From sequence record PZ154895.1: a DNA stretch of 64,000 nucleotides; one strand, written 5' to 3'. Below the pieces are notes generated by a model. It was not told where the DNA came from, ran no database searches, and saw only the letters and a list, made by a program, of their open reading frames with translations. The stretch's first letter is position 1, and each line of letters begins with the position of its first letter. Shown here piece after piece: positions 9,084 to 24,195 of this stretch. Made by a program: the position numbers and the translations under genes. This DNA comes from a phage.

Positions 9084-9140
9084 TGTTTACAAGTCCCTCG
9101 TGTTGTGTTATAGTAGTCTTACTGACATAACATGAGGACT
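9084..9140 (+). repeat. promoter/leader direct repeat copy A (~57 bp, ~90 percent identical to 24139-24195)
   Basis: gtttacaagtccctcgtgttgtgttatagtagtcttactgacataacatgagga versus copy at 24140. Confidence 0.85.
9085..9114 (+). promoter_or_regulatory. early-type promoter (GTTTAC -35, tatagt -10, 18-bp spacer)
   Basis: gtttac 9085-9090, tatagt 9109-9114. Confidence 0.55.
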
Positions 9141-9145
9141 TTATG

Positions 9146-9649
9146 ATGGATTTACAGCTTATTACTACTGAAATGGTCGTTGAAGCATACGGTGATACTA
9201 CAGATGGGATTTCTGTATTTAAAGGAAATCGTCGAGTTGGATATATCACCGATCTTAAGAAAGATTTAGCTAAGCAAGTCAAGCGGAAAACGACCATCAA
9301 AGAATATCGAAATCGTCGTCTTGAGCAAGCCCGTGATATGCTTCCTGATGCGGTTGAGGAGATGAAAGTCTTTTTAGAAAATCAGCTTGCGAAATATGAT
9401 TGTGATGTGTTCATTAATCAGACTCAACCTAATGTTCATATCAATAACTGTAAATGCTACATCATCGTTAATCCTTTGACGGGAAAACATCGTCTTGGAA
9501 TTAGTAATCCAAATCGTAGTGCATCAGATATGGCAGAAGATGTTGAGGCATGCTTTAAAATTTCTAAATCTCCGGCTGAACATCATATTTTAATTAACGG
9601 TCTTTCTCAAGACGATATTGTAGAGGTTATTAAAACTTTATGCATGTAA
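9146..9649 (+). CDS. hypothetical protein, possibly Alc by position and length (167 aa)
   Basis: ORF between rnlA and pseT block; identity inferred from synteny only. Confidence 0.5.
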   Translation: MDLQLITTEMVVEAYGDTTDGISVFKGNRRVGYITDLKKDLAKQVKRKTTIKEYRNRRLEQARDMLPDAVEEMKVFLENQLAKYDCDVFINQTQPNVHINNCKCYIIVNPLTGKHRLGISNPNRSASDMAEDVEACFKISKSPAEHHILINGLSQDDIVEVIKTLCM

Positions 9650-9993
9650 GTAATTTTACAGCTGGATTGCTATTACTTGTGATAGCATTTGGCGGAACAT
9701 CTATTATTTTAAAAAATAAGGTAGAAAGATTAGAAACATCGGTTACTGAAATTACAAAAACAGCCAATGAAAACGCTTTAGCATTAGATAATTTGCGAAT
9801 TCAGTATAATTATATTGATGCGATGAATAATAAAAATCGTGAGGCAATTGCTGCTATTGAGCGTGAAAATGAAAAACTGCGCAAAGATGCAAAGAAGGCG
9901 GATGTGGTGGCTCATAAGCCAGGATTGGTTGAAAAACAAATCAACAACTCCTTCAACAAGTTCGCAGAAGACATCCAGGACCTTTCTAAATGA
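9640..9993 (+). CDS. i-spanin (inner-membrane spanin subunit)
   Basis: 117 aa; N-terminal TM helix LLLLVIAFGGTSIIL then coiled-coil-like region; followed by lipoprotein ORF. Confidence 0.7.
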   Translation: MHVSNFTAGLLLLVIAFGGTSIILKNKVERLETSVTEITKTANENALALDNLRIQYNYIDAMNNKNREAIAAIERENEKLRKDAKKADVVAHKPGLVEKQINNSFNKFAEDIQDLSK

Positions 9994-10289
9994 TTAAACT
10001 ATCAGCAGTAATATTATCTATCGGTCTTCTAGTTGGTTGTTCGACAAAGCCTCTAGAAGTAAAGAAAGAAACAGTTCATCCTAATTGGCCTGTGCAAATA
10101 AAGTCATATGATGAAGCTAAACTATCTTGGCAAGTTAAAGTTATTGATGGTAAAGCTTGGGTCGGTATGCCATTTGAAGATTCCCAGGAATTTCGTATTT
10201 GGCTTAATGATGTAAAACGATATGTACATGACCAAAAAACTATGATATGTTATTATCGTCAAGAGCTAAAAGAGGATAAATGTAAATGA
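9990..10289 (+). CDS. o-spanin (outer-membrane lipoprotein spanin subunit)
   Basis: 99 aa; signal peptide with lipobox LLVGC; C-terminal Cys residues. Confidence 0.7.
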   Translation: MIKLSAVILSIGLLVGCSTKPLEVKKETVHPNWPVQIKSYDEAKLSWQVKVIDGKAWVGMPFEDSQEFRIWLNDVKRYVHDQKTMICYYRQELKEDKCK

Positions 10290-10512
10290 TTTCATGGCAT
10301 CAATTTGAACATCTCAAAGGATTGATTTATGAATCTGAGATGGCTGCAATGATTTATGGACGCCAGATTCAACGATTAGAATCTTTACCTCCAACTAATG
10401 ATGTTTTATTAGCTCAATCACGTGCTAATCTTAAAAATGAATACCAAAATAAGTGGGGTAAAGCATCTAAAGACCTGCATGATTATATTCAATCATTGGT
10501 TGAGAAAAATAA

Positions 10513-10516
<4 letters not shown>
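10286..10516 (+). CDS. hypothetical small protein (76 aa)
   Basis: translationally coupled ORF (ATGA overlap). Confidence 0.45.
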
Positions 10517-11719
<1,203 letters not shown>

Positions 11720-11720
<1 letters not shown>

Positions 11721-11917
11721 TGGCGTGGCATCATGAAACTTGGTCTATTGTTATTGTAAATAGTGGTTTAGTTGGTACTAGTAATGGGCAATTTTGTATA
11801 TTCACTAGTGAAATCAGAGCTTGGGAGGAATGCCTTAAATTAAGAGAAAAGAATCCTGATGTTGAACTAACAGTAAAGAAAACTAAACTACCTTTACCAT
11901 GGAAAACTTATGAATAA
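11720..11917 (+). CDS. hypothetical small protein
   Basis: ORF starting at TAATG overlap with pseT stop. Confidence 0.4.
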
Positions 11918-12110
11918 CATAGAAAAGATTTATCGTCTTTGTGATAAGATTGAAAAAGAAAAGAAATATCTATTTTGTTTATGGCCTATTGTTGATGGAA
12001 GAGTAGGCTTAGATGTTCTTGATTATGAAACAGAAGACAAAGTAGATGGTTCAACTTTTGATAATGCGTTGGATGTTATTGATTGGCTTGAAGAAAATTA
12101 TGTGAGGTAA
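11910..12110 (+). CDS. hypothetical small protein (66 aa)
   Basis: ORF in cd-pseT interval. Confidence 0.4.
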   Translation: MNNIEKIYRLCDKIEKEKKYLFCLWPIVDGRVGLDVLDYETEDKVDGSTFDNALDVIDWLEENYVR

Positions 12111-12112
12111 AT

Positions 12113-12388
12113 ATGTTTCCGACTTATTCTAAAATCGTAGAAGTAGTGTTTAGCCAAATTATCGCTAATAATATGTTTGAAAAGCTTGATAACGCAGCCG
12201 AGCTTCGAATTCATGCTCAAGTGACTCATGTATTGAACACTTTGCTTCCAGACCAGGTTGATTCTATTGCCATTACGCTGTATCCAGGTTCCGCGCATAT
12301 CATTGTCGTATTTGGTCTTGATGCTGAGCTAGTCATCAAAGGCGATATTCGCTTTGAATCACAGACATCAGAATTCAAGGCAATTTAA
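12113..12388 (+). CDS. hypothetical small protein (91 aa)
   Basis: ORF with RBS. Confidence 0.45.
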   Translation: MFPTYSKIVEVVFSQIIANNMFEKLDNAAELRIHAQVTHVLNTLLPDQVDSIAITLYPGSAHIIVVFGLDAELVIKGDIRFESQTSEFKAI

Positions 12389-12390
12389 CA

Positions 12391-12429
12391 GTTTACTTTA
12401 TGGTAGAGTTGTGATATTATAGCTCTACC
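12391..12429 (+). promoter_or_regulatory. early-type promoter inside inverted repeat tggtagag/ctctacca
   Basis: gtttac 12391-12396, tattat 12415-12420, 8-bp inverted repeat 12401-12408/12423-12430. Confidence 0.5.
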
Positions 12430-12450
12430 AAAACAAATGAGGAAAACAAA

Positions 12451-12687
12451 ATGCTAAGTGAAAAACCAATTACTGTTAAAGAATTCCAAGAAAAAGTTAA
12501 ACTATTTGCACAGGAATTGGTAAATAAGGTTTCTGAACGATTTCCTGAAACATCGGTTCGTGTTATTACCGAAACTCCTCGTTCAGTATTAGTAATTGTG
12601 AATCCAGGTGATGGTGACCAAATAACACATCTCAAATTGGATTTTGATGGATTAGTTGAAGCACAAAGGGTGTATGGCGTACTATGA
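12451..12687 (+). CDS. hypothetical small protein (78 aa)
   Basis: ORF with GAGGAAAA RBS downstream of promoter. Confidence 0.5.
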   Translation: MLSEKPITVKEFQEKVKLFAQELVNKVSERFPETSVRVITETPRSVLVIVNPGDGDQITHLKLDFDGLVEAQRVYGVL

Positions 12688-13022
12688 TGAATTTAACTGA
12701 TATAATTGATAATTGTCTTGAAAATGATACTGGCGATCATAGAGCGCTTGATTCTGAAACAGCACAGTTCATTAAAGTTATTTTAATGAATGATACTTTA
12801 GTGAATAGTATTCATCCTTCTGTGTATGATGCTATTATTGTGACGAAGTATCCAGTTGAGCTTCACAAAAAGATGGCTGGTGCAATTTTTATTGATAAGA
12901 AAAACCGCTTTAAAGATGGGCAGAATATAATTAGTTCTGTTATTAAAAGTATAACTAAACTTCGTCACGAAATTTATCGTGTTGAAACTGCTAAATCTGC
13001 TTATCTGGTGATTATGAAATGA
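12684..13022 (+). CDS. hypothetical small protein (112 aa)
   Basis: ATGA-coupled ORF. Confidence 0.45.
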   Translation: MMNLTDIIDNCLENDTGDHRALDSETAQFIKVILMNDTLVNSIHPSVYDAIIVTKYPVELHKKMAGAIFIDKKNRFKDGQNIISSVIKSITKLRHEIYRVETAKSAYLVIMK

Positions 13023-13600
13023 AAGCGAGTACAGTACTTCAAATTGCATATTTAGTATCGCAAGAATCCAAATGTTGCTCCTGGAAGGTAGGAGCAGTAA
13101 TTGAAAAGAATGGACGTATTATTTCTACCGGATATAATGGTTCACCTGCAGGTGGTGTGAATTGTTGTGATTATGCTGCTGAGCAAGGTTGGTTGCTGAA
13201 TAAGCCTAAACATACTATCATTCAAGGTCATAAGCCCGAATGTGTATCATTTGGTTCAACTGATCGTTTTGTCTTAGCGAAAGAACACCGTAGTGCTCAC
13301 TCTGAATGGTCGTCTAAAAATGAAATTCATGCTGAACTAAATGCGATTTTGTTTGCTGCACGAAACGGTTCTTCAATTGAAGGTGCTACTATGTATGTAA
13401 CACTTTCTCCTTGCCCAGATTGTGCAAAAGCGATAGCTCAATCTGGTATTAAAAAGCTGGTTTATTGCGAAACATACGATAAGAATAAACCTGGCTGGGA
13501 TGATATTCTGCGAAATGCAGGTATTGAAGTGTTTAATGTTCCTAAGAAAAACTTGAATAAGTTAAATTGGGAAAATATCAACGAATTCTGTGGTGAATAA
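13019..13600 (+). CDS. cd: dCMP deaminase
   Basis: 193 aa; zinc-binding motifs HAELNA and PCPDCA; recognised as T4 Cd. Confidence 0.92.
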   Translation: MKASTVLQIAYLVSQESKCCSWKVGAVIEKNGRIISTGYNGSPAGGVNCCDYAAEQGWLLNKPKHTIIQGHKPECVSFGSTDRFVLAKEHRSAHSEWSSKNEIHAELNAILFAARNGSSIEGATMYVTLSPCPDCAKAIAQSGIKKLVYCETYDKNKPGWDDILRNAGIEVFNVPKKNLNKLNWENINEFCGE

Positions 13601-13836
13601 TGAAATTTCGTTTGGTACAGCTCACAGCAATTAGTTCTTATTCTAACGAGAACATTTCATTTGCTGTAGAGTATAAGAAATATTTTTTCTCTAAATGGAA
13701 GCAGTATTATAAGTCAGAATGGGTTTGTATTGATAGACCGTATAGTTGGAAATCTGATTTAGAAAAATGCCAAAAATTGCTTTCCACTCTTAAAGAACGT
13801 GGAACAACCCATATTAAAACTGTAATAGGTAAATAA
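13600..13836 (+). CDS. hypothetical small protein (78 aa)
   Basis: ORF in cd-31 interval. Confidence 0.4.
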   Translation: MKFRLVQLTAISSYSNENISFAVEYKKYFFSKWKQYYKSEWVCIDRPYSWKSDLEKCQKLLSTLKERGTTHIKTVIGK

Positions 13837-14145
13837 ATGAAATTGACAACTGAACAGAAAGTAGCAATTCGTGAAATTTTGAAAACTAAATTGTCCATGG
13901 GTATTTCAAACGTGGTTTTTGAAAAGTCTGATGGTACTATTCGTACCATGAAAGGCACTCGTGATGCAGACTTTATGCCAACCATGCAAACTGGTAAATT
14001 GACTGAATCTACTCGGAAAGAATCTACTGATATGATTCCAGTATTTGATGTTGAGCTTGGTGCATGGCGAGGTTTTTCTATTGACAAATTGATTTCTGTT
14101 AATGGTATGAAAGTTGAGCATTTGCTTCAATTTATTGGTAAATAA
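13837..14145 (+). CDS. hypothetical small protein (102 aa)
   Basis: ORF in cd-31 interval. Confidence 0.45.
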   Translation: MKLTTEQKVAIREILKTKLSMGISNVVFEKSDGTIRTMKGTRDADFMPTMQTGKLTESTRKESTDMIPVFDVELGAWRGFSIDKLISVNGMKVEHLLQFIGK

Positions 14146-14146
14146 A

Positions 14147-14171
14147 TGCTTTAAGAATTATTTGTTATTAT
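14147..14171 (+). promoter_or_regulatory. middle (MotA-type) promoter for gene 31
   Basis: MotA-box-like aaTGCTTtA around 14146-14154 and tattat at 14166-14171, about 12 bp apart. Confidence 0.5.
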
Positions 14172-14201
14172 TAATTCATCTGTTAACAAAAAGGAAAAAC
14201 G

Positions 14202-14537
14202 ATGTCTGAAGTACAACAGCTACCAATTCGTGCTGTCGGTGAATATGTTATTTTAGTTTCTGAACCTGCACAAGCCGGTGATGAAGAAGTTACAGAATCA
14301 GGACTTATTATCGGTAAACGTGTCCAAGGTGAAGTTCCTGAACTGTGTGTAGTTCACTCTGTTGGTCCTGATGTTCCTGAAGGTTTCTGCGAAGTTGGTG
14401 ATTTGACTTCTCTTCCAGTTGGTCAAATTCGAAACGTTCCGCATCCTTTTGTAGCTCTGGGTCTTAAGCAGCCAAAAGAAATTAAACAAAAATTCGTTAC
14501 CTGTCACTATAAAGCTATTCCGTGTCTTTATAAGTGA
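14202..14537 (+). CDS. 31: co-chaperonin for GroEL (GroES analogue)
   Basis: 111 aa; [30 protein letters not shown]... recognised as T4 gp31. Confidence 0.93.
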
Positions 14538-14545
14538 TATAAATA
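14538..14545 (+). promoter_or_regulatory. late promoter motif TATAAATA upstream of rIII
   Basis: exact tataaata immediately after gene 31 stop. Confidence 0.45.
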
Positions 14546-14663
14546 ATAATATGAATTGAGTTTCAATTCTATGTGGTAGTCTACAACTGAGAGATCTGTC
14601 GAAAGAAGATGAAATTCAGAAGAACGTGACTACCGAGTTTTAATCTCTAACGAGAATTTTTAA

Positions 14664-14912
14664 ATGATTAAACAATTACAACACGCTCTTGAACTGCAAC
14701 GAAACGCATGGAATAATGGTCACGAAAACTATGGCGCATCTATTGATGTTGAAGCCGAAGCTCTTGAAATCCTGCGTTATTTCAAACATCTGAATCCTGC
14801 TCAAACTGCATTAGCCGCTGAGCTTCAGGAAAAAGATGAACTTAAGTATGCTAAGCCTCTGGCTTCTGCTGCACGAAAAGCAGTTCGTCACTTTGTGGTA
14901 ACACTGAAGTAA
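14664..14912 (+). CDS. rIII: lysis inhibition accessory protein rIII
   Basis: 82 aa; MIKQLQHALELQRNAWNNGHENYG... recognised as T4 rIII; synteny next to gene 31. Confidence 0.85.
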   Translation: MIKQLQHALELQRNAWNNGHENYGASIDVEAEALEILRYFKHLNPAQTALAAELQEKDELKYAKPLASAARKAVRHFVVTLK

Positions 14913-15106
14913 TTTATTGGAGAGTCACTGCCTTAGTGTGAAGTTAAAACGAGGAGCCGTCGAACTTTGTTTTACGGTGTACCTCTTGAATGTTGACGAG
15001 GTTTATGGTTATCCTGTCGGTAAATATTCAAAACCTAAGTACCCCTTGAGGGCTTTCGCAGGCAATGCCAATAAGTCCTGCATTTTCATTTAAAAGAGAA
15101 TTTATA

Positions 15107-15283
15107 ATGGCAAAACAAGCTAAAGCAAAGAAAGCAGTTGAAAAGAAAGTTGGTGATTCTAAACGCGCTGGTTACAAGCGTGGGTCGAACTCTCGTATCA
15201 ATCAAACTGTTGAGAAGATCATGCGCCGAGCACGTGCGGTTCTTCGAGATGATGCTTCTCGTTTTGGTAAGCAGAAAGCATAA
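15107..15283 (+). CDS. hypothetical small highly basic protein (58 aa)
   Basis: MAKQAKAKKAVEKK... Lys/Arg-rich; own RBS; strong terminator follows; longer ORF 15065 lacks RBS. Confidence 0.5.
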   Translation: MAKQAKAKKAVEKKVGDSKRAGYKRGSNSRINQTVEKIMRRARAVLRDDASRFGKQKA

Positions 15284-15287
15284 GTTG

Positions 15288-15316
15288 AGGACTCCTTCGG
15301 GAGTCCTTTTTTATTT
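15288..15316 (+). terminator. rho-independent terminator
   Basis: hairpin aggactccttcgggagtcct with UUCG loop followed by tttttatttt. Confidence 0.8.
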
Positions 15317-15336
15317 TCCAAAGATTGCATAAAGTT

Positions 15337-15386
15337 GTTTACAGTATAGTTCCTTTGTGATAGTATTATCTTACACAAACAAAGGA
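15337..15386 (+). promoter_or_regulatory. early-type promoter with imperfect inverted repeat spanning -10
   Basis: gtttac 15337-15342, tagtat 15361-15366; tcctttgtg / cacaaacaaagga arms. Confidence 0.45.
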
Positions 15387-15393
15387 GAATAAA

Positions 15394-15726
15394 ATGAAAA
15401 CGATTAATCTGAACGCCACAGTTAAAACTAAATGCTTCAATGGTAAATATGATGAAACTATGTGGTTCTTAATGGCAGTTGAAGGTGATATTATTGAAGT
15501 AGAAACAACAGAAGGTATGGGAACAGATTTCACCTTTACAATTCAAGTTCATAATTTCTTTACTGGTTGGATTTATGAATTGAATACAGTAATCGTTGGA
15601 AAAATTGAACAAAATGAATTGGGTGAATGGTATTATGTTACAGCTCGCCAACGTGCCGAACGCTTAATTGAGAAGATGAAAAAAGTTGGTAAACTTGACA
15701 TGCAACATTGGAAAGTAGTAAAATAA
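15394..15726 (+). CDS. hypothetical protein (110 aa)
   Basis: ORF with AAGGAG RBS. Confidence 0.5.
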   Translation: MKTINLNATVKTKCFNGKYDETMWFLMAVEGDIIEVETTEGMGTDFTFTIQVHNFFTGWIYELNTVIVGKIEQNELGEWYYVTARQRAERLIEKMKKVGKLDMQHWKVVK

Positions 15727-15728
15727 TT

Positions 15729-15768
15729 GTTTACTTTGGTACAGGATATGATATTATATACCTGTACC
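15729..15768 (+). promoter_or_regulatory. early-type promoter inside inverted repeat ggtacagg/cctgtacc
   Basis: gtttac 15729-15734, -10 tattat about 15752-15757, perfect 8-bp inverted repeat 15738-15745/15761-15768. Confidence 0.5.
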
Positions 15769-15781
15769 GCAATTAAACATC

Positions 15782-16159
15782 TTGGAGAATAAAATGAACT
15801 ACATCAACTTTGAACGTAAATATGTTTCTAATGGTATTGCAGGTTCTATTGATACTATTTGCCTTTGGAAACATCAAAATGGATCAGTATGCGAAATTGA
15901 ACAGTATATGACTCCTAACTACGTTTATATGCGATTTGAAAATGGCATCACGGTTTCAATCACGAAAGAAGGTTCTTCTTTTAAAATCGCATTAGATGAT
16001 GATTTTCGTCAACGTGATTTAGGTACTCATCCTTGCTGGAATGGCGTCAATCGTAAGCTTCTGGTTAAAACTTGGATTCGTCATATTCTGAGTAACAGAG
16101 CTAAACCTGAGCATCTTGAAGCGATCTTTGATGTAGTTCTTAACGAATTTGATATTTAA
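15782..16159 (+). CDS. hypothetical protein (125 aa)
   Basis: ORF with GGAGAAT RBS. Confidence 0.5.
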   Translation: MENKMNYINFERKYVSNGIAGSIDTICLWKHQNGSVCEIEQYMTPNYVYMRFENGITVSITKEGSSFKIALDDDFRQRDLGTHPCWNGVNRKLLVKTWIRHILSNRAKPEHLEAIFDVVLNEFDI

Positions 16160-16169
16160 AATAAAATGA

Positions 16170-16190
16170 GGGGCTTCGGCCCCTTACTGA
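16170..16190 (+). terminator. terminator-like hairpin
   Basis: ggggcttcggcccc with UUCG loop, weak T tract after. Confidence 0.5.
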
Positions 16191-16200
16191 GGAAAATACT

Positions 16201-16488
16201 ATGTTTATGACTACTTATTTTGATACCCGCAAAAATTTCTGTGAAGTGGTTTTCTCTAAGGCGCCTAAAGACCTTCCTGCTCATTTGCAGCCTACTAGTG
16301 AATCGATTAAAAACTATGTTAATGTAGTCTGCCCTTTAGAGTTCCGTACTGTAAATGGCCGCGATACTTTAGCTATCACTAAACTTAATCGTGAAATTGA
16401 CATTGACCCTTCAATTGCGCGCGAAATTAACATTTCTGATATCGGCGGCGGTAATGTTAAATCACACGGTTTTCAGATGAGATTTTAA
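16201..16488 (+). CDS. hypothetical protein (95 aa)
   Basis: ORF with GAGGAAAA RBS. Confidence 0.5.
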   Translation: MFMTTYFDTRKNFCEVVFSKAPKDLPAHLQPTSESIKNYVNVVCPLEFRTVNGRDTLAITKLNREIDIDPSIAREINISDIGGGNVKSHGFQMRF

Positions 16489-16492
16489 TAAA

Positions 16493-17159: not shown

Positions 17160-18019
17160 AGCCAACTATTTTGACTGATATTGATGGAGTATGTTTAAGC
17201 TGGCAATCAGGCCTTCCTTATTTTGCTCAGAAATATAATCTTCCGTTAGAACATATTTTAAAAATGATCCAAGATGAGAAATTTATTTCTCCAGGTAAAC
17301 TCTTTAATTGTGATGAAGAACTTGGTGTCAAGTTAATTGAAAAATACAATCGTTCAGATTTTATTCGTTACTTGTCTCCGTATAAAGATGCCCTGTGTGT
17401 AATTAACAAATTAAAAGAAGATTATAATTTTGTAGCTGTTACAGCATTGGGTGATTCTATTGACGCTCTGTTGAATCGTCAATTTAATTTGAATGCTCTT
17501 TTTCCTGGTGCCTTCTCAGAAGTAATGATGTGTGGTCATGATTCTTCAAAAGAAGAGTTATTCAAAAAGGCAAAAGAGAAATATAACGTAATTTGTTATA
17601 TTGACGATCTCGCTCACCATTGCGATCATGCGAGTGAAATATTAAATGTTCCGGTTTATTGGATGGCTCGAGGAGAGCGTGACAATATTCCAAAAACTGC
17701 GCAGCGAGTTTATACATGGAATGATGTAGAAAATAAGCTTTTTTCACCAAAGGAAAATAAAGAAAGTTTTGATAGTGAAAAAGCTATAAAAGATGTAATT
17801 GAGAAGATGGTTAAAAACGATTCTTTTCGTTGGAACACTACTTGGAGAACTCCTGGATTTAATCCGTATAATCCATATTATACACATCCATATAATCCAT
17901 ATTATACACACCCGTATCATATGAATCCATTCCATACGTGGAGTTATACCAAGCCTGGCGATGCAGGATATTTTAATAGATTTACTAGTGGTGATAATAT
18001 TTTCCAAGGAGCATTCTAA
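17156..18019 (+). CDS. HAD-superfamily phosphatase-like protein with Tyr/Pro/His-rich repeated C-terminus
   Basis: 287 aa; N-terminal DxDG motif LTDIDGV; C-terminal NPYNPYYTHPYNPYYTHPY repeat. Confidence 0.6.
   Translation: MKPTILTDIDGVCLSWQSGLPYFAQKYNLPLEHILKMIQDEKFISPGKLFNCDEELGVKLIEKYNRSDFIRYLSPYKDALCVINKLKEDYNFVAVTALGDSIDALLNRQFNLNALFPGAFSEVMMCGHDSSKEELFKKAKEKYNVICYIDDLAHHCDHASEILNVPVYWMARGERDNIPKTAQRVYTWNDVENKLFSPKENKESFDSEKAIKDVIEKMVKNDSFRWNTTWRTPGFNPYNPYYTHPYNPYYTHPYHMNPFHTWSYTKPGDAGYFNRFTSGDNIFQGAF
17861..17914 (+). repeat. intragenic tandem repeat (2 exact 20-nt copies, period 24)
   Basis: tataatccatattatacaca at 17867-17886 and 17891-17910. Confidence 0.9.
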
Positions 18020-18288
18020 TGTTTGTCGTTCACACTATTTATGAAAATGAAGGTAATACTACACGTGATTACGGTCACGTAAATCAATTTTTTAGATGCA
18101 ATCCAGAATTCCGAGCTCAAAAAGACGAACGAATTTTTAAAAAATGTGTAGAGCAAGGTTTCATTTACGTCAAGCATTGGATGCAAGGAAATAAAGTTAG
18201 AACTACATATCATAAGTCTTTGCCTGAGCTTAATGATGAATTGATTTATAATAGAGCTGTAAACCAAACCTTGAAGGATGAGCAATGA
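18019..18288 (+). CDS. hypothetical protein (89 aa)
   Basis: ATGA-coupled ORF immediately upstream of ligase. Confidence 0.5.
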   Translation: MFVVHTIYENEGNTTRDYGHVNQFFRCNPEFRAQKDERIFKKCVEQGFIYVKHWMQGNKVRTTYHKSLPELNDELIYNRAVNQTLKDEQ

Positions 18289-19748
18289 TTCTTAAAATTC
18301 TGAATGAAATAGCATCTATTAGATCAACTAAGCAGAAGCAAGCAATTCTTGAAAAGAATAAAGATAATGAATTGCTTAAACGAGTATATCGTCTGACTTA
18401 TTCTCGTGGGTTACAGTATTATATCAAGAAATGGCCTAAACCTGGTATTGCTACCCAGAGTTTTGGGATGTTGACCATTACCGATATGCTTGACTTCATT
18501 GAATTCACGTTAGCTACTCGGAAATTAACTGGCAATGCAGCAATTGAGGAATTAACTGGATATATCACTGATGGTAAAAAGGATGATGTTGAAGTTTTGC
18601 GTCGAGTGATGATGCGAGATCTTGAATGCGGTGCTTCAGTATCTATTGCAAACAAAGTTTGGCCAGGTTTAATTCCTGAACAACCTCAAATGCTCGCAAG
18701 TTCTTATGATGAAAAAGGCATTAGTAAGAATATCAAATTTCCAGCTTTTGCGCAGTTAAAAGCAGATGGAGCTCGGTGTTTTGCTGAAGTTCGAGGTGAT
18801 GAATTAGATGATGTTCGTCTTTTATCACGAGCTGGTAATGAATATCTAGGATTAGATCTTCTTAAGGAAGAATTAATCAAAATGACTGCTGAAGCCCGCC
18901 AGATTCATCCAGAAGGTGTGTTAATTGATGGCGAATTGGTATACCATGAGCAAGTTAAAAAGGAACCAGAAGGCCTAGATTTTCTTTTTGATGCTTATCC
19001 TGAAATTAGTAAAGCTAAAGAATTCGCCGAAGTAGCGGAATCTCGTACTACTTCTAATGGAATCGCCAATAAATCCTTAAAAGGAACCATTTCTGAAAAA
19101 GAAGCTCAATGTATGAAGTTTCAGGTCTGGGATTATGTCCCGTTGATAGAAATATACGGTCTTCCGGCGTTTCGTTTAAAATATGATGTACGTTTTTCTA
19201 AACTAGAACAAATGACATCAGGATATGATAAAGTAATTTTAATTGAAAACCAAGTAGTAAATAACCTAGATGAAGCTAAGGTAATTTATAAAAAATATAT
19301 TGACCAAGGTTTTGAAGGTATTATTCTCAAAAATACCGACGGATTGTGGGAAAATGCTCGTTCAAAAAATCTCTATAAATTTAAAGAAGTAATTGATGTT
19401 GATTTAAAAATTGTAGGAATTTATCCTCACCGTAAAGACCCTACTAAAGCGGGTGGATTTATTCTTGAATCAGAGTGTGGAAAAATTAAAGTAAATGCTG
19501 GTTCAGGCTTAAAAGATAAAGCCGGTGTAAAATCGCATGAACTTGACCGTACTCGCATTATGGAAAACCAAAATTATTATATTGGAAAAATTCTAGAATG
19601 TGAATGCAATGGTTGGTTAAAATCTGATGGCCGCACCGATTACGTTAAATTATTTCTTCCGATTGCGATTCGTTTACGTGAAGATAAAACTAAAGCTAAT
19701 ACATTCGAGGATGTATTTGGTGATTTTCATGAGGTAACTGGTCTATGA
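18285..19748 (+). CDS. 30: ATP-dependent DNA ligase
   Basis: 487 aa; adenylation motif KADGAR; recognised as T4 DNA ligase. Confidence 0.95.
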   Translation: MILKILNEIASIRSTKQKQAILEKNKDNELLKRVYRLTYSRGLQYYIKKWPKPGIATQSFGMLTITDMLDFIEFTLATRKLTGNAAIEELTGYITDGKKDDVEVLRRVMMRDLECGASVSIANKVWPGLIPEQPQMLASSYDEKGISKNIKFPAFAQLKADGARCFAEVRGDELDDVRLLSRAGNEYLGLDLLKEELIKMTAEARQIHPEGVLIDGELVYHEQVKKEPEGLDFLFDAYPEISKAKEFAEVAESRTTSNGIANKSLKGTISEKEAQCMKFQVWDYVPLIEIYGLPAFRLKYDVRFSKLEQMTSGYDKVILIENQVVNNLDEAKVIYKKYIDQGFEGIILKNTDGLWENARSKNLYKFKEVIDVDLKIVGIYPHRKDPTKAGGFILESECGKIKVNAGSGLKDKAGVKSHELDRTRIMENQNYYIGKILECECNGWLKSDGRTDYVKLFLPIAIRLREDKTKANTFEDVFGDFHEVTGL

Positions 19749-19933
19749 AAGCTTACTTAGAAACAATTGTCGTTGCTCAAAAAGAAGGTGGAGATGTTTC
19801 TACTTCTGTATCACAAATTATGATTGAATTTATAGATGCATATGCTTATAATAAATTCACAGAAACATTTGATGCCTACGAAAAAGGTCCAAAGTTTGAA
19901 ATATACCGTACTCTCTTACCAATAGATTATTAA
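19745..19933 (+). CDS. hypothetical small protein (62 aa)
   Basis: ATGA-coupled ORF after ligase. Confidence 0.45.
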   Translation: MKAYLETIVVAQKEGGDVSTSVSQIMIEFIDAYAYNKFTETFDAYEKGPKFEIYRTLLPIDY

Positions 19934-19957
19934 AGGCCTTCGGGCCTTTAATTTTAT
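19932..19957 (+). terminator. rho-independent terminator
   Basis: hairpin aaaggccttcgggccttt then aatttta. Confidence 0.7.
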
Positions 19958-19985
19958 AAATAGAATAAACACTAGAGAGGATATG

Positions 19986-22079
19986 ATGGAACTCATTACA
20001 GAATTATTTGACGAAGATACTACTCTTCCGATTACAAACTTAAATCCAAAGAAGAAAATACCACAAATTTTTTCAGTTCATGTTGATGACGCAATTGAAC
20101 AACCAGGCTTTCGTTTATGTACCTATACATCTGGAGGTGATACTAATCGTGATTTAAAGATGGGCGATAAAATGATGCATATTGTTCCTTTTACATTAAC
20201 TGCTAAAGGTTCAATTGCTAAATTAAAAGGTCTCGGTCCAAGCCCAATTAATTACATCAATTCAGTTTTTACTGTTGCAATGCAGACGATGCGTCAGTAT
20301 AAAATTGATGCCTGTATGCTCCGTATTCTTAAGTCTAAAACTGCTGGTCAAGCTCGTCAAATTCAACTTATTGCTGATAGACTTATCCGCAGTCGTTCAG
20401 GTGGCAGATACGTCCTTCTTAAGGAACTCTGGGATTACGATAAAAAGTATGCATATATTCTTATACATCGCAAAAATGTATCACTAGAAGACATTCCAGG
20501 AGTTCCGGAAATTAGCACCGAGCTCTTTACTAAAGTTGAATCGAAGGTCGGTGATGTTTATATCAATAAAGATACTGGAGCTCAAGTAACTAAAAATGAG
20601 GCAATTGCAGCATCTATTGCACAAGAAAATGATAAACGTTCTGACCAAGCTGTAATCGTTAAAGTTAAAATTTCCCGTAGAGCAATTGCGCAAAGTCAGT
20701 CATTGGAATCTTCTAGATTTGAAAGCGAATTATTCCAGAAGTATGAATCTACCGCAGCTAATTTCAATAAACCTGCTACCGCTCCTTTAATTCCCGAAGC
20801 AGAAGAAATGAAGCTTGGAATTAATTCATTAGCTTCTAAAACTAAAGCAGCAAAAATTATTGCCGAAGGAACTGCAGATGAACTTCACTATGACTATAAA
20901 TTCTTTTCAAAAAGTGAGGTTAATGAAGTTTCTGAAAAAATTAAAGATGTAATTCTTAATGCGATTAAAAATGAACCAACTACTTCAATAAAATGTTTAG
21001 AGAAATACGCAGCAGCTGTTAATAAATTCTTTGAAGAATACAAAGATAAATGGCTTGATAAACATAATAAAACCCGTAAAGGACAGCCAGATGAAGTCTG
21101 GGAAGAAATAACTAAAAATTCCTGGAACGCAGCAAAAACTAAATTCCTCAAACGAATGATTTATAGCTTTTCTGGAATTGGTGCAGGTCCAATGATTGAT
21201 ATTACCATTGCACGTGATGGTTCTAAATATACTCCATCGCAAAAGCGCGGTATTAGAGAGTATTGTGGATCAGGATATACTGACATCAATAATCTTCTTT
21301 TAGGCCGCTACAATCCAGAACGATATGATGTAATGAGCGAAAAAGAAATTGAATCTGCGATAAATAATTTAGATTCAGCTTTTGAAAATGGTGACCGTAT
21401 ACCAGAAGGCATTACAGTTTATCGTGCTCAAAGTATGACTGCTCCTATATACGAAGCACTAGTTAAAAATAAAGTGTTCTATTTCAGAAATTTTGTATCT
21501 ACTTCTTTAACTCCTATCATTTTTGGACGTTTTGGAATTACACATGCTGGTATCGGTCTTTTAGAACCAGAAGCTCGTAATGAATTAACAGTTGATAAAA
21601 ATGAAGAAGGAATAACTATTAATCCAAGCGAAATAAGAGCGTATAAAGAAAATCCTGAATACGTTAAAGTTCAAATAGGATGGGCAATTGATGGAGCTCA
21701 TAAAGTTAATGTTGTATATCCAGGAAGTCTCGGAATAGCAACAGAAGCTGAAGTTATTCTACCACGCGGATTGATGGTCAAAGTTAATAAAATAACTGAT
21801 GCTTCTAATAATGATGGAACAACATCTAATAATACAAAACTCATTCAAGCTGAAGTTATGACTACGGAAGAACTCACCGAATCAGTAATTTATGACGGTG
21901 ACCGTCTAATGGAAACCGGCGAAGTAGTTGCAATGACAGGTGATATTGAAATAGAAGACAGAGTTGACTTTGCATCATTTGTTTCATCAAATGTTAAACA
22001 GAAAGTAGAATCATCTCTTGGATTTATTGCGTCTTGCATAGATATTACAAACATGCCTTACAAGTTCGTTCAAGGATAA
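19986..22079 (+). CDS. alt: Alt ADP-ribosyltransferase (head-packaged)
   Basis: about 697 aa; N-terminus MELITELFDEDTTLPITNL; R / STS / E-x-E ART motifs (YRAQ, FVSTSL, EAEVILPRG). Confidence 0.9.
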   Translation: MELITELFDEDTTLPITNLNPKKKIPQIFSVHVDDAIEQPGFRLCTYTSGGDTNRDLKMGDKMMHIVPFTLTAKGSIAKLKGLGPSPINYINSVFTVAMQTMRQYKIDACMLRILKSKTAGQARQIQLIADRLIRSRSGGRYVLLKELWDYDKKYAYILIHRKNVSLEDIPGVPEISTELFTKVESKVGDVYINKDTGAQVTKNEAIAASIAQENDKRSDQAVIVKVKISRRAIAQSQSLESSRFESELFQKYESTAANFNKPATAPLIPEAEEMKLGINSLASKTKAAKIIAEGTADELHYDYKFFSKSEVNEVSEKIKDVILNAIKNEPTTSIKCLEKYAAAVNKFFEEYKDKWLDKHNKTRKGQPDEVWEEITKNSWNAAKTKFLKRMIYSFSGIGAGPMIDITIARDGSKYTPSQKRGIREYCGSGYTDINNLLLGRYNPERYDVMSEKEIESAINNLDSAFENGDRIPEGITVYRAQSMTAPIYEALVKNKVFYFRNFVSTSLTPIIFGRFGITHAGIGLLEPEARNELTVDKNEEGITINPSEIRAYKENPEYVKVQIGWAIDGAHKVNVVYPGSLGIATEAEVILPRGLMVKVNKITDASNNDGTTSNNTKLIQAEVMTTEELTESVIYDGDRLMETGEVVAMTGDIEIEDRVDFASFVSSNVKQKVESSLGFIASCIDITNMPYKFVQG

Positions 22080-22082
22080 ATC

Positions 22083-24140
22083 ATGGAACTTATTACAGAA
22101 TTATTTGACGGCGCTTCGGCGCCGGTTGTTAACTTAAATCCTAAGCATAAAATACCTCAAATTTTTGCTATTCAAGCTGGTGAAGAAAGTGTGCTTCCTG
22201 GATTTAGATTTTGTACATACACCTCTGGCGGTGATACAAATAAAAACGTTAAGCCAGGCGATAAAATGATGCATATCGTAATGATAGGTGTCAATGAGAA
22301 ACTATCATTAGTTAAACTTAAAAGCTTAGGTGGAAATCCAATTGGTGTCATTAATGCGGTTTTTGATACTGCTCTTCAAACAATGAAACAGTATAAAATT
22401 GACGCATGCCTATTCCGCGTACTAAAAAGTAAAACAAATGGCGCTGCTCGTCAAATTCAAGTTATTGCTGACCGTTTAGTACGTACTAAAGGAGCAGGTC
22501 GATATGTTCTTTTAAAGGAAATCTGGGACTATGATAAAAAGTATGCATATATTATGGTTTACCGTAAAAATGCCAATTTAGAAGACATTCCAGGTGTACC
22601 TCCTATTTCAACTGAGTTATTCACAAAAGTTGAATCAAAGGTTGGTGATGTTTATGTAGACGTTAAAACAGGTAATGCTGTTCCTAAAGCTGTTGCTGTT
22701 GCTGCTTCTATTGCTTTAGAAAATGATAAGCGTACAGATCAAGCTGTTATTCAGAAAACTAAAATTAGTCGTCGATTAGCAGCACAAGCTCAATATTCTA
22801 CTGTCGATGCTTCACTTCAGGGCGATAGCTTCGCTGCTAAGAAATATCAAGAGTTTGAATCTAAAGTTCCGGTATATAAAGCAGAAGGACCAATGAACTC
22901 TGGCGTTATTCAGATTGGTTCAAACTTCAGCAAAGGAGCTATCGGTGGTATGAGAAGTGCTTCTCGTTTTAAATCTAACGATTATGAACTAGAAAGCTTC
23001 CGAAATCATATTGCATTGGCCCATGCACGTTTACGTGATCCATCTATTAAATTACAGAGCGATATAACATATCAAGGTTCTCAGGAATATTTAAAGAATA
23101 AAGAATTCTTTGATTATAAAACCGATAAAATTTTGAGCGATCTTGCTGACATTAATATTTCTAATAGCTTTGATGTTATTAAGAAAATTGTCAATGATTT
23201 AGTTAAAGGTTCTAAAGCCACGCCAGATGAAAAGGTAGCTATTATTCAATTTGTCATGAATGGCATTTATAAATTGATTAATGAGTCTGCTTCTCAAGCG
23301 TATGAATATGCAAGTACTGAAGTACCCCCAAAAGGATTAACTCAGGCTGAGTCCGATGTAATTGAAGATTATTGTGCAGATTCATATGTTGAAATGAACT
23401 CGTTCCTCTTGGGTAAACCAGATTCTACTCGTGAAGAATACATGGAACGAGCTATTAAACACATCGAGACGCTGGATTCTGCATTCGCCAAAGGATCAGT
23501 TCTTCCTCCAGGAACTACGCTTTATCGTGGACAAGAAGTTACTTTTAAAACTTTACGCCATAATATTGAAAATAAAATGTTCTATTTCAAGAACTTCGTA
23601 TCAACATCGCTTAAACCAAATATCTTCGGTGAGTATGGTAAAAACTATATGGCTTTAGATGATTCCAGTGCAGTATTTTCTGGTGAAGGAGAAGGTTCAG
23701 TTGATGCTGAAGATTTAATGCATATGGGTAGTCACTCTGCTTATGCGAATGAAGATGCTGAAACTAGCGTGGGTATGGTAATTAAAGGAGCTGAGCGAAT
23801 CAAAGTTATCGTTCCAGGACATTTATCAGGATTTCCATCAGAAGCTGAAGTTATTTTACCGCGTGGAATTTTGCTGAAGATTAATAAAGTGAGTACGTAC
23901 ATGATGAAAGAAACTGCTTATAATAAGTATCTAATCGAAGGCACAATCGTTCCTCCTTCTGAACAATTAGAAGAATCGGTATATGATGGCGACCATCTAA
24001 TGGAAACTGGTGAAGTTCGTCCAATGGCTGGATTTAATCAATTCCTTGTAGAAGAATCAAAAGAAGAGGAAAACGAAGTTTCTCAAATCTTGGCTTCTTT
24101 GGTTAACATCAACGGAATGTCTAAAAAGTTCAAGATGTAG
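22083..24140 (+). CDS. Alt-like ADP-ribosyltransferase paralog
   Basis: 685 aa; same N-terminal propeptide MELITELFD and same R / STS / E-x-E motifs; diverged central region. Confidence 0.85.
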   Translation: MELITELFDGASAPVVNLNPKHKIPQIFAIQAGEESVLPGFRFCTYTSGGDTNKNVKPGDKMMHIVMIGVNEKLSLVKLKSLGGNPIGVINAVFDTALQTMKQYKIDACLFRVLKSKTNGAARQIQVIADRLVRTKGAGRYVLLKEIWDYDKKYAYIMVYRKNANLEDIPGVPPISTELFTKVESKVGDVYVDVKTGNAVPKAVAVAASIALENDKRTDQAVIQKTKISRRLAAQAQYSTVDASLQGDSFAAKKYQEFESKVPVYKAEGPMNSGVIQIGSNFSKGAIGGMRSASRFKSNDYELESFRNHIALAHARLRDPSIKLQSDITYQGSQEYLKNKEFFDYKTDKILSDLADINISNSFDVIKKIVNDLVKGSKATPDEKVAIIQFVMNGIYKLINESASQAYEYASTEVPPKGLTQAESDVIEDYCADSYVEMNSFLLGKPDSTREEYMERAIKHIETLDSAFAKGSVLPPGTTLYRGQEVTFKTLRHNIENKMFYFKNFVSTSLKPNIFGEYGKNYMALDDSSAVFSGEGEGSVDAEDLMHMGSHSAYANEDAETSVGMVIKGAERIKVIVPGHLSGFPSEAEVILPRGILLKINKVSTYMMKETAYNKYLIEGTIVPPSEQLEESVYDGDHLMETGEVRPMAGFNQFLVEESKEEENEVSQILASLVNINGMSKKFKM

Positions 24141-24195
24141 TTTACAAGTCACTCGTGTTGTGTTATAATAATCTTACTGACATAACATGAGGAAC
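24139..24195 (+). repeat. promoter/leader direct repeat copy B
   Basis: gtttacaagtcactcgtgttgtgttataataatcttactgacataacatgagga; matches 9084-9140. Confidence 0.85.
24140..24169 (+). promoter_or_regulatory. early-type promoter (GTTTAC -35, tataat -10)
   Basis: gtttac 24140-24145, tataat 24164-24169. Confidence 0.55.

What the first reader, a model, noticed from the sequence alone, without database searches (positions are those of the whole stretch)
9084..24195. A ~57-bp promoter-plus-leader segment repeated directly 15 kb apart
Segments 9084-9140 and 24139-24195 are about 90 percent identical (gtttacaagtc[c/a]ctcgtgttgtgttata[gtag/ataa]tcttactgacataacatgagga). Each supplies an early-type promoter and the leader and Shine-Dalgarno sequence for different downstream genes (9146 and 24201). 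Direct repeats of this size are substrates for recombination that would delete or duplicate the intervening block from rnlA to alt. They also imply co-regulation of two unrelated genes.
Basis: seen in the sequence. Interest (0 to 1): 0.5.

Follow-up and report, generated by a model that had tools for sequence, protein, structure and literature searches.

The report
Duplicated early-promoter hairpin cassette in T4-like phage
Two nearly identical 54-bp control cassettes in a T4-like phage each combine a strong early promoter with a conserved hairpin that probably lets the downstream gene (alc, alt.-3) be translated only from RNA started at that promoter.

Summary
Segments 9085-9138 and 24140-24193 match at 51/54 positions, have unrelated flanks, and occur twice in about 500 Tequatrovirus genomes including T4.

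The similarity is not generic promoter consensus. The pair shares 39/41 non-hexamer positions; other early-promoter pairs in the window share 7-25/41.

Each copy is an extended -10 early promoter followed by a 13-nt leader and the SD GAGGA. Each also encodes a long hairpin: the 5' arm is the promoter spacer, the apex holds the -10 box and start site, and the 3' arm is the leader plus SD. Opening the SD is predicted to cost 8-10 kcal/mol on RNA arriving from rnlA or alt, and 0.5-1.9 kcal/mol on RNA from the cassette's own promoter.

The alc hairpin recurs with different sequences and compensatory changes in six other lineages. In other genera alt.-3 has a different cassette, so copy B is a derived copy of the alc cassette.

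Anatomically this is a PeSL-type regulatory cassette. It works like the T4 e/soc/49/I-TevI hairpins, but with an early promoter inside.

Repeat-mediated deletion or duplication would be lethal or too large to package, and no sampled genome shows it. I rate it a new variant of a known kind, of moderate interest.

The parts
9085..9138 (+). Cassette copy A (the alc cassette), from the G of GTTTAC to the end of SD GAGGA
   Evidence: Matches covariance model R1 at 65.1 bits.
9086..9114 (+). Early sigma-70-type promoter of copy A: -35 TTTACA 9086-9091, 17-nt spacer, TG 9106-9107, -10 TATAGT 9109-9114
   Evidence: 10/12 matches, with TG before the -10 hexamer.
9121..9121 (+). Predicted transcription start of copy A (A, seventh nt after the -10 hexamer)
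   Evidence: Inferred from the T4 early-promoter geometry described in PMC1524935. Not mapped experimentally here.
9091..9109 (+). 5' arm of hairpin A, lying in the promoter spacer
   Evidence: minimum-free-energy hairpin of 22 bp, -24.4 kcal/mol, z -4.6.
9124..9141 (+). 3' arm of hairpin A: the leader plus SD GAGGA (9134-9138)
   Evidence: Opening the SD costs 7.8-10.2 kcal/mol on read-through RNA and 0.5 on RNA from the cassette's own promoter.
7957..9081 (+). rnlA, the upstream gene. Its stop codon TAA (9079-9081) lies 3 nt before the cassette, with no terminator between
9143..9649 (+). alc, inhibitor of host transcription. T4 annotates the start at the second ATG, 9146
   Evidence: Pfam PF17527, E 4.5e-92.
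24140..24193 (+). Cassette copy B (the alt.-3 cassette), 51/54 identical to copy A
   Evidence: Matches model R1 at 69.6 bits.
24141..24169 (+). Early promoter of copy B: -35 TTTACA 24141-24146, 17-nt spacer, TG, -10 TATAAT 24164-24169. Predicted start at A24176
   Evidence: 11/12 matches, with TG.
24152..24168 (+). 5' arm of hairpin B, in the promoter spacer and running into the -10 hexamer
   Evidence: -19.6 kcal/mol, z -3.3.
24174..24191 (+). 3' arm of hairpin B: the leader plus most of SD GAGGA (24189-24193)
   Evidence: Opening the SD costs 9.0-9.9 kcal/mol on read-through RNA and 1.9 on RNA from the cassette's own promoter.
22083..24140 (+). Second alt paralog (ADP-ribosyltransferase). 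The last base of its stop codon TAG is the first G of the cassette
24201..24491 (+). alt.-3 (96 aa, DUF5498), the gene served by copy B
   Evidence: The protein is detected early in T4 infection (PMC9697503).
24496..24517 (.). Bidirectional terminator hairpin between alt.-3 and the convergent gene 54. It ends the copy B transcription unit

Best explanation
The two segments are two copies of one early-gene regulatory cassette of the PeSL type.

Anatomy. Each copy holds a strong sigma-70 early promoter (TTTACA, 17 nt, TG-TATAGT or TG-TATAAT), a predicted start site (A9121, A24176), a 13-nt leader and the Shine-Dalgarno sequence GAGGA. The same 54 bp also encode a long imperfect hairpin. Its 5' arm is the promoter spacer, its apex carries the -10 box and start site, and its 3' arm is the leader plus SD.

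Proposed mechanism (inferred). RNA polymerase arriving from the upstream gene (rnlA for copy A, the late gene alt for copy B) transcribes both arms, because no terminator intervenes. The hairpin then forms and buries the SD, so alc and alt.-3 are poorly translated from read-through RNA. RNA started at the cassette's own promoter contains only the 3' arm, is unstructured, and is translated. Synthesis of Alc and Alt.-3 is therefore tied to their own immediate-early promoter and insulated from upstream delayed-early and late transcription.

History. Copy A is the ancestral alc cassette. Copy B arose when a copy of it replaced the ancestral alt.-3 cassette by short-patch recombination or gene conversion, before the sampled Tequatroviruses diverged.

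What is shown and what is inferred. Shown: the repeat, the promoter anatomy, the hairpin and its covariation, and the different cassette at alt.-3 in other genera. Inferred: that the hairpin acts at the RNA level, that it blocks translation, the start-site positions, and the copy mechanism.
For: Structure:
- Both copies fold into the same hairpin: -24.4 kcal/mol (z -4.6) and -19.6 kcal/mol (z -3.3). RNA starting at the predicted start site is unstructured (z +1.1).
- The ensemble cost of opening the SD is 7.8-10.2 (A) and 9.0-9.9 (B) kcal/mol on read-through RNA, against 0.5 and 1.9 on RNA from the cassette's own promoter.

Conservation:
- The rnlA-alc gap has the same design with different arm sequences in Gelderland-, Karam-, Jiaoda-, Dhaka- and Winklervirus and in the L034/35 lineage.
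- Fixed-register alignment of 14 sequences from 7 lineages: 81% of cells paired (shuffles 64 +/- 1.8; slid partners 35-48). 13/17 pairs show both-sided changes. There are 42 compensatory cells against 13.1 +/- 2.8 in shuffles (0/1000).
- An Infernal alignment with the tool's own count gives 8 pairs and 20 cells with both-sided changes, against 3.3 and 6.1 in shuffles (0/500) and 1-4 and 1-7 in slid controls.

Context:
- There is no terminator between the upstream stop codons and the cassettes.
- In T4, alc and alt.-3 are early-RNA/early-protein, rnlA is early-RNA/late-protein and alt is late (PMC9697503).
- An unrelated cassette, 30.8 at 15337, shows the same read-through-specific sequestration: 8.6 versus 0.2 kcal/mol.
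- With DNA parameters copy B is no better than shuffles on either strand (z -0.5 and +0.9). In Tequatrovirus the sense RNA is 4.6-9.8 kcal/mol more stable than the antisense.

Derived status of copy B:
- In Dhaka-, Gapriver-, Mosig-, Marfa- and Karamvirus the syntenic alt.-3 gap carries a different cassette, with a small hairpin inside the spacer.
Against: - There is no experimental evidence here for the start sites, the RNA structure or a translational effect.
- In Teguna- and Kanagawavirus the alc hairpin stops 2-5 nt before the SD.
- Three other early promoters in the window (327, 12391, 15729) have hairpins straddling the -10 box that do not touch the SD. SD burial therefore cannot be the only reason for such hairpins.
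- Across genera there is no consistent energy advantage of the sense over the antisense strand (mean difference -0.4 kcal/mol). An RNA-level role is not proven by strand asymmetry.
- PeSL stem-loops were shown in RB49 to attenuate transcription (PMC2839356), which offers a different role for the same structure.
- The covariation alignment used one free offset per sequence.
- A ribosome terminating at the alt stop codon could melt the base of hairpin B. The element might then couple the two genes rather than uncouple them (inference).
Confidence: 0.55

Rival explanations
1. The hairpin is a PeSL-type transcriptional attenuator or insulator. It acts on RNA polymerase or on RNA 3' ends, reducing read-through from rnlA or alt into the next unit, or stabilising the upstream mRNA's 3' end. 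Pairing with the SD is a by-product of squeezing a stem-loop and a promoter into a 60-nt gap.
For: - Arbiol et al. describe PeSL subclasses whose stem-loop lies between -35 and -10 or overlaps -10. They showed that one such stem-loop lowers downstream lacZ about as much as a strong terminator (PMC2839356).
- Hairpins straddling -10 without SD pairing occur at 327, 12391 and 15729, and at alc in Teguna- and Kanagawavirus.
- The hairpins always sit within 0-9 nt of the upstream stop codon.
Against: - No U-tract follows the stem in copy B or in the other genera, and the terminator scan finds nothing at either cassette.
- The stems are rich in A-U and G-U pairs, unlike the GGGG...CCCC stems that were tested in RB49.
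- The SD lies inside the covarying core of the helix in 7 lineages.
Confidence: 0.2
2. The hairpin enforces translational coupling rather than uncoupling. A ribosome finishing rnlA or alt melts the base of the helix and transiently frees the SD, so alc or alt.-3 is translated from polycistronic RNA only when the upstream gene is being translated.
For: - The upstream stop codon lies 0-9 nt from the cassette in all lineages. In copy B it overlaps the first base.
- The lower helix, with the SD, is the part closest to the stop codon.
Against: - In copy A the stop codon is 6 nt before G1 and the helix core starts at position 9-14. By inference, this is beyond the roughly 13-nt reach of a terminating ribosome.
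- Alc and Alt.-3 appear early, while RnlA and Alt proteins appear late. That argues against coupled synthesis.
Confidence: 0.08
3. The inverted repeat acts at the DNA level. It could form a cruciform or single-strand hairpin around the -10 box that modulates promoter opening, or be the target of a phage factor, for example in the still unexplained shut-off of early promoters.
For: - Covariation is equally compatible with a DNA structure.
- Sense/antisense asymmetry is not consistent across genera.
- All six strong early promoters in the window have inverted repeats around -10.
- The mechanism of early-promoter shut-off is described as not completely understood (PMC3014915).
Against: - With DNA parameters copy B is no better than shuffles on either strand, and the minus strand of copy A is weak (z -1.9).
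- The Tequatrovirus helix relies on three G-U pairs, which are mismatches on the other strand.
- The 3' arm coincides with the SD, which has no meaning in DNA.
Confidence: 0.08
4. The repeat matters mainly as a recombination substrate. Crossing-over between the copies deletes or duplicates the 15-kb alc-to-alt block and shapes genome structure.
For: - PeSL pairs recombine to give deletions and mini-circles at about 1e-5 in RB49, and T4 recombination can use short homology patches (PMC2839356).
- The presence of an alc-type cassette at alt.-3 shows that recombination involving these sequences happened at least once.
Against: - The interval contains the essential genes 31 and 30 and the spanins.
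- Almost all of about 500 genomes keep two copies.
- The longest perfect block in this window is 22 bp.
- By inference, a 15-kb duplication exceeds T4's headful reserve.
- This reading does not explain the covarying hairpin.
Confidence: 0.05

Closest known systems
PeSL (promoter-early stem-loop) regulatory cassettes of T4-type phages (Arbiol et al. 2010, PMC2839356; Comeau et al. 2014, PMC4122927)
   Same: - The layout matches: upstream stop codon, strong sigma-70-like early promoter, a stem-loop placed within or over the promoter, then the SD and ATG of the next gene.
- The described subclasses include stem-loops 'between -35 and -10' and 'overlapping the -10 box'.
- The cassette is repeated within a genome.
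- Related cassettes sit in front of unrelated genes in different phages.
- Copy B borders an indel: an intact alt paralog here, the remnants alt.-1/alt.-2 in T4.
   Different: - The stem is long (12-22 bp), rich in A-U and G-U pairs and has no U-tract. It is not the GGGG...CCCC terminator type.
- Its 3' arm contains the SD, which the PeSL papers I could read do not describe.
- The two copies are 15 kb apart in a conserved early region with essential genes between them, not neighbours flanking an ORFan.
- The 2014 paper places the PST/T4 stem-loops just upstream of the promoter.
Structure-gated translation initiation regions of T4 genes e, soc, 49 and I-TevI (reviewed in Uzan & Miller 2010, PMC3014915)
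   Same: The SD and/or AUG is buried in a helix on long transcripts that enter from upstream. A promoter lies within the DNA that encodes the helix, so its own transcripts lack the 5' strand and are translated.
   Different: - In the known cases the internal promoter is a late one (gp55, TATAAATA) and the device delays expression.
- Here it is an immediate-early sigma-70 promoter, so the device would confine expression to the early period.
- The 5' strand is the promoter spacer itself.
- alc and alt.-3 are not listed among the known cases.
Intrinsic (rho-independent) terminators
   Same: A stable hairpin lies immediately downstream of a stop codon.
   Different: There is no G+C-rich stem and no U-tract, and the scan does not detect one at either cassette. 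A true terminator of this type sits at 24496-24517.

Membership tests
PeSL regulatory cassette | Strong sigma-70-like early promoter (-35 and -10 boxes, about 17-nt spacer) | tested here: met
   TTTACA-17-TATAGT (10/12, TG) and TTTACA-17-TATAAT (11/12, TG).
PeSL regulatory cassette | Stable stem-loop in one of five positions relative to the promoter, including overlapping the -10 box | tested here: met
   Hairpins of -24.4 and -19.6 kcal/mol, z -4.6 and -3.3, with the -10 box at the apex. Subclass definition from PMC2839356.
PeSL regulatory cassette | [quoted passage not shown] | tested here: met
   The rnlA stop is 3 nt before copy A. The alt stop overlaps the first base of copy B. SD and ATG follow within 8-12 nt.
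PeSL regulatory cassette | AT-rich tract upstream of the -35 box | tested here: inconclusive
   Copy A has ttttttgaaaaattataaaaaattt 25-50 nt upstream, inside rnlA. Copy B has only ctaaaaagttcaa.
PeSL regulatory cassette | Motif repeated at several intergenic sites of one genome | tested here: met
   Two copies per genome in about 500 Tequatroviruses. Other, more diverged cassettes of the same build lie at 327, 12391, 15337 and 15729.
PeSL regulatory cassette | Stem-loop works as a transcription terminator or attenuator | not testable with these tools
   No U-tract, and no terminator call at either cassette. A reporter or 3'-end assay is needed.
PeSL regulatory cassette | Associated with indels or cassette exchange through recombination between PeSLs | tested here: inconclusive
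   - The alt.-3 site carries a different cassette in five other genera, so the cassette was exchanged.
- The alc site carries at least three cassette types across genera.
- No deletion or duplication between the two copies was seen.
T4 e/soc/49/I-TevI-type structure-gated TIR | SD and/or AUG paired in a helix on transcripts from upstream | tested here: met
   Prediction only. Opening the SD costs 7.8-10.2 (A) and 9.0-9.9 (B) kcal/mol on read-through RNA. The helix covaries.
T4 e/soc/49/I-TevI-type structure-gated TIR | A promoter inside the helix-coding DNA gives transcripts that lack the 5' strand | tested here: met
   The -10 box is at the apex. The predicted starts at 9121 and 24176 lie 3' of the whole 5' arm. 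RNA from the cassette's own promoter needs 0.5-1.9 kcal/mol to open the SD. The start sites are inferred, not mapped.
T4 e/soc/49/I-TevI-type structure-gated TIR | The internal promoter is a late (gp55, TATAAATA) promoter | tested here: not met
   The internal promoter is an early sigma-70 type with a -35 box. The element works like this family but is not a member in the strict sense.
T4 e/soc/49/I-TevI-type structure-gated TIR | Translation shown to be lower on the long transcript | not testable with these tools
   Only indirect evidence: protein timing differs from that of the upstream genes (PMC9697503).
Intrinsic terminator | G+C-rich stem followed by a U-tract | tested here: not met
   No terminator-like site at 9085-9141 or 24140-24193.
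Any Rfam family | Match to a curated covariance model | tested here: not met
   No match at either cassette, even at E up to 1.

The most novel reading that the evidence does not exclude
Hairpins that straddle or fill the promoter spacer may be a selected, general feature of early promoters in Tevenvirinae. All six strong early promoters in this window have one, and the alc hairpin covaries across seven lineages.

This would be an unrecognised regulatory layer. In a subset (alc, alt.-3, 30.8) the hairpin would make translation depend on initiation at the gene's own promoter ('promoter-licensed translation'). Alternatively, the DNA inverted repeat could be the cis-signal for the still unexplained shut-off of early promoters.

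The identical cassette at alc and alt.-3 throughout Tequatrovirus would then reflect selection for matched, strictly immediate-early production of Alc and the uncharacterised DUF5498 protein Alt.-3, hinting at a functional link between them.
Probability: 0.2. Interest if true: 0.75.

Novelty: new variant of a known kind. Interest (0 to 1): 0.5.

Why it matters
T4 is the reference model for phage gene regulation, yet the reviews I could read list only four structure-gated translation starts, all tied to late promoters.

If the alc/alt.-3 cassette works as proposed, the same trick is used in the opposite temporal direction. It would restrict a host-shutoff protein (Alc) and an unknown early protein (Alt.-3) to the first minutes of infection, even though polymerases keep reading through from upstream middle and late units.

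It would also give PeSL stem-loops a second, translational role. It shows that regulatory cassettes, and not only ORFs, are exchanged between loci.

In practice it matters for phage engineering. Moving or deleting genes next to such cassettes, or using T4 early promoters as parts, would carry a hidden RNA structure along.

Tried and rejected
- **MAFFT plus RNAalifold.** On ten cassettes this gave no consensus structure. The arms were out of register because of a Tequatrovirus bulge and differing loop lengths.
- **N-padded sequences.** MAFFT re-gapped them (A4). I therefore used a fixed-register alignment in Python and an Infernal alignment.
- **Strand asymmetry.** Comparing sense and antisense folding to prove an RNA-level role was inconclusive across genera.
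- **Second copy in other genera.**
  - Karamvirus records show 2-3 places for their own alc cassette.
  - The extra copy is not at alt.-3 and not within 49 kb around it.
  - Two IMG/VR pattern scans did not find it; the 16-mer was too unspecific.
- **Mosigvirus reverse replacement.** I looked for an alt.-3-type cassette copied to alc. Both AV112 cassettes have the spacer-internal hairpin and share parts of the leader. Gapped identity is only 79%, against a 65-80% background between cassettes, so this is only suggestive.
- **Ongoing gene conversion.** In five genomes with both copies read, the variants are private to one copy, so it is not shown.
- **Rejected explanations.** Chance or generic consensus is rejected. 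An intrinsic terminator is rejected. No Rfam family matches.
- **Literature.** The Miller et al. 2003 T4 genome review is not held. Searches found no earlier description of an alc or alt.-3 promoter hairpin. Older subscription papers, such as Liebig & Rüger 1989, could not be checked.


Full report
**What is there.**

The window is a Tequatrovirus (T4-like) genome segment, with the + strand running in the direction of early transcription. The best match is Escherichia phage DCP2 at 99.5%.

The repeat is real. Segments 9085-9138 and 24140-24193 match at 51/54 positions, with unrelated flanks on both sides. None of 100 shuffles gives two matches.
- Copy A fills the gap between the rnlA stop codon (9079-9081) and alc (ATG 9143/9146).
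- Copy B starts at the last base of the stop codon of the second of two tandem alt paralogs (22083-24140). It precedes the 96-aa gene alt.-3 (24201-24491). A bidirectional terminator and the convergent gene 54 follow.

The pair is a genus-wide feature. About 500 Tequatrovirus records hold it, 999 places in all. T4 itself has it at 136283-136336 and 123040-123093 on the complement strand, with one difference in 54.

**More than promoter consensus.**

Both copies are called as extended -10 promoters: TTTACA, 17 nt, TG-TATAGT or TG-TATAAT. I aligned the six strong + strand early promoters of the window in register. The A/B pair shares 39/41 positions outside the two hexamers; all other pairs share 7-25/41.

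**Anatomy: a hairpin built into the promoter.**

The spacer segment just after the -35 box (CCCUCGUGUUGUGUU) is complementary to the leader and SD (GACAUAACAUGAGG).
- As RNA, copy A forms a 22-bp hairpin of -24.4 kcal/mol (z -4.6). Copy B forms one of -19.6 kcal/mol (z -3.3).
- The -10 box and predicted start site lie at the apex. RNA beginning at the predicted start (A9121, A24176) is unstructured (z +1.1).
- Opening the SD costs 7.8-10.2 (A) and 9.0-9.9 (B) kcal/mol on RNA entering from upstream. It costs 0.5 and 1.9 kcal/mol on RNA from the cassette's own promoter.
- No terminator separates the cassettes from rnlA or alt, so read-through RNA must exist.

**Is the structure selected?**

I collected the rnlA-alc gap from other genera. 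The arm sequences differ but the design recurs:

| Lineage | 5' arm / 3' arm |
|---|---|
| Gelderlandvirus | UCUCCGUUUAGUU / AACUAAACGGAGA |
| Karamvirus | CUCCAUUUGGUUG / CAACCAAAUGGAG |
| L034/35 lineage | CCUCGUUUGUU / AACAAACGAGG |
| Winklervirus | CCUCAUUUCGUU / AACGAAAUGAGG |
| Jiaodavirus | UCCUCAUCAG / CUGAUGAGGA |
| Dhakavirus | UCUCCUCAU / AUGAGGAGA |

Two alignments give the same answer.
- **Fixed-register alignment**, anchored on the -35 box with one loop-length offset per sequence; 14 sequences from 7 lineages:
  - 81% of cells are paired, against 64 +/- 1.8 in column shuffles and 35-48 with slid partners.
  - 13 of 17 pairs show changes on both sides.
  - There are 42 compensatory cells, against 13.1 +/- 2.8 in shuffles (0/1000).
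  - One position shows CG, GC, AU and UA.
- **Covariance model** built on these cassettes, counted with the tool's own controls:
  - 8 pairs and 20 cells have both-sided changes.
  - Shuffles give 3.3 and 6.1 (0/500).
  - Slid controls give 1-4 pairs and 1-7 cells.

The SD lies in the covarying core of the helix.

**Limits of the structural evidence.**

- In Teguna- and Kanagawavirus the alc hairpin ends 2-5 nt before the SD.
- In the Mosigvirus-like phage, the Acinetobacter phages and Gaprivervirus the design is absent or different.
- Strand asymmetry does not settle RNA versus DNA. Tequatrovirus favours the sense strand by 4.6-9.8 kcal/mol, Gelderlandvirus favours the antisense, and the mean difference is -0.4.
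- With DNA parameters copy B is no better than shuffles on either strand. That argues against a cruciform in this genus.

**History of the second copy.**

The alt / alt.-3 / gene 54 arrangement is syntenic in Dhaka-, Gapriver-, Mosig-, Marfa- and Karamvirus, always with a gap of about 58 nt holding an early promoter. The cassette there is of another type. It has a 4-6-bp hairpin inside the spacer with an (A)AGGA(A/U) loop, and its arms also covary.

By parsimony, copy B in Tequatrovirus is a derived copy of the alc cassette that replaced the ancestral alt.-3 cassette.

The alc site itself carries at least three cassette types across genera. The Tegunavirus alc cassette belongs to a family that sits before cd.2 in this window (12391), after tk in Serratia phage 92A1, and before an unrelated gene in Mosigvirus mogra. 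Again the arms show compensatory changes. Cassettes are therefore exchanged between loci.

A reverse replacement in Mosigvirus is only suggestive. Ongoing gene conversion is not shown, because the variants in five genomes are private to one copy.

**Comparison with what is known.**

Arbiol et al. 2010 define PeSLs as an upstream stop codon, an AT-rich tract, a strong early promoter, a stem-loop in one of five positions, then SD and ATG. The commonest stem-loop positions are between -35 and -10 or overlapping -10. They show promoter activity, attenuator activity and recombination between neighbouring PeSLs. Comeau et al. 2014 extend this to a T4 relative.

The cassette meets the anatomical criteria. 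It differs in these ways:
- It has a long stem rich in A-U and G-U pairs, with no U-tract.
- Its stem includes the SD.
- Its two copies are 15 kb apart.

Mechanistically it resembles the T4 e, soc, 49 and I-TevI hairpins, where an internal promoter removes the 5' strand of an SD-burying helix (PMC3014915). In those cases the internal promoter is late. Here it is early, so strict membership fails on that feature. Neither alc nor alt.-3 is listed there, and I found no earlier description in the held literature. Older subscription papers could not be checked.

**Expression data.**

In T4, alc and alt.-3 are both early-RNA/early-protein. rnlA is early-RNA/late-protein and alt is late (PMC9697503). 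This agrees with co-regulation of the two genes and with insulation from the upstream genes. It is not a direct test.

**The recombination idea.**

The interval contains alc, the spanins pseT.3/pseT.2, pseT, cd, 31, rIII, 30 and alt.
- A deletion would remove essential genes.
- By inference from headful packaging, a 15-kb duplication would exceed the terminal redundancy.
- Almost all genomes keep two copies.
- The longest perfect block in this window is 22 bp.

Rare crossing-over is possible but should leave no viable product.

**Generality.**

All six strong early promoters in the window have inverted repeats around the -10 box.
- Three show SD burial specific to read-through RNA: alc, alt.-3 and 30.8.
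- Three do not: 327, cd.2 and 30.7.

SD sequestration is therefore my preferred function for this cassette (confidence 0.55). A transcription- or RNA-stability-level insulator role, as proposed for PeSLs, remains the main rival (0.2).

**Verdict.**

The element is a duplicated PeSL-type early promoter cassette whose hairpin probably gates translation. It is a new variant of a known kind, with interest 0.5.

Noticed in passing
window 19983-22079 and 22083-24140: There are two full-length tandem alt paralogs. Blocks are 72-78% identical at the nucleotide level and both match Pfam ADPrib_exo_Tox. T4 keeps only the remnants alt.-1/alt.-2 of the second one, so an indel polymorphism lies directly upstream of cassette B.
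   Followed up: partly
window 327-384, 12391-12453, 15337-15396, 15729-15796: Four more + strand early-promoter cassettes have inverted repeats straddling the -10 box. At 15337 (gene 30.8) the SD is buried only on read-through RNA (8.6 versus 0.2 kcal/mol). At the other three the hairpin does not touch the SD.
   Followed up: partly
T4 NC_000866 133300-133313 (equivalent to the loop of the window cassette at 12391): The T4 record notes 'inverted complement of previously reported sequence; corrects the early promoter Pe133295 between cd.2 and cd.3'. The corrected stretch lies between the inverted-repeat arms. This suggests either a hairpin-related sequencing artefact or a real loop inversion.
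   Followed up: no
L007 1430-1760; L045 1-230 (Gaprivervirus): A truncated N-terminal duplicate of alc sits in front of the real alc gene. It is preceded by a terminator-like GGGG-TGTACAA-GCCCC-TTCTTTCT hairpin whose loop holds a -35-like hexamer. The real alc gene has no promoter of its own.
   Followed up: partly
L066, L067, L068, L069, L070 about 140-200; L057 26296-26354: Upstream of alt.-3 in five other genera there is a distinct cassette type. It has a 4-6-bp hairpin inside the promoter spacer, an SD-like (A)AGGA(A/U) loop, and arms that covary.
   Followed up: partly
NC_054916.1 (Escherichia phage vB_EcoM-G28); Karamvirus records: G28 shows three places for the Tequatrovirus cassette instead of two. 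Karamviruses show 2-3 places for their own alc cassette. I did not find the extra sites.
   Followed up: partly
window 16161-16188 and 37041-37068: A shared GGGGCTTCGGCCCC hairpin, of the UUCG-loop terminator type, occurs at two distant sites.
   Followed up: no
window 15239-15322: A sub-threshold Rfam hit to the Rhizobiales sRNA Atu_C8 (31.4 bits against a gathering score of 50, E 0.006). It is most likely chance.
   Followed up: no
window 58921-58980: A + strand promoter-like site (ATTGAC, 18 nt, TATAGT) lies inside an 11-bp inverted repeat (CCUUUUGGAAG/CUUCCAGAAGG). It sits in a region not otherwise examined, and it is unclear whether it is a real promoter.
   Followed up: no
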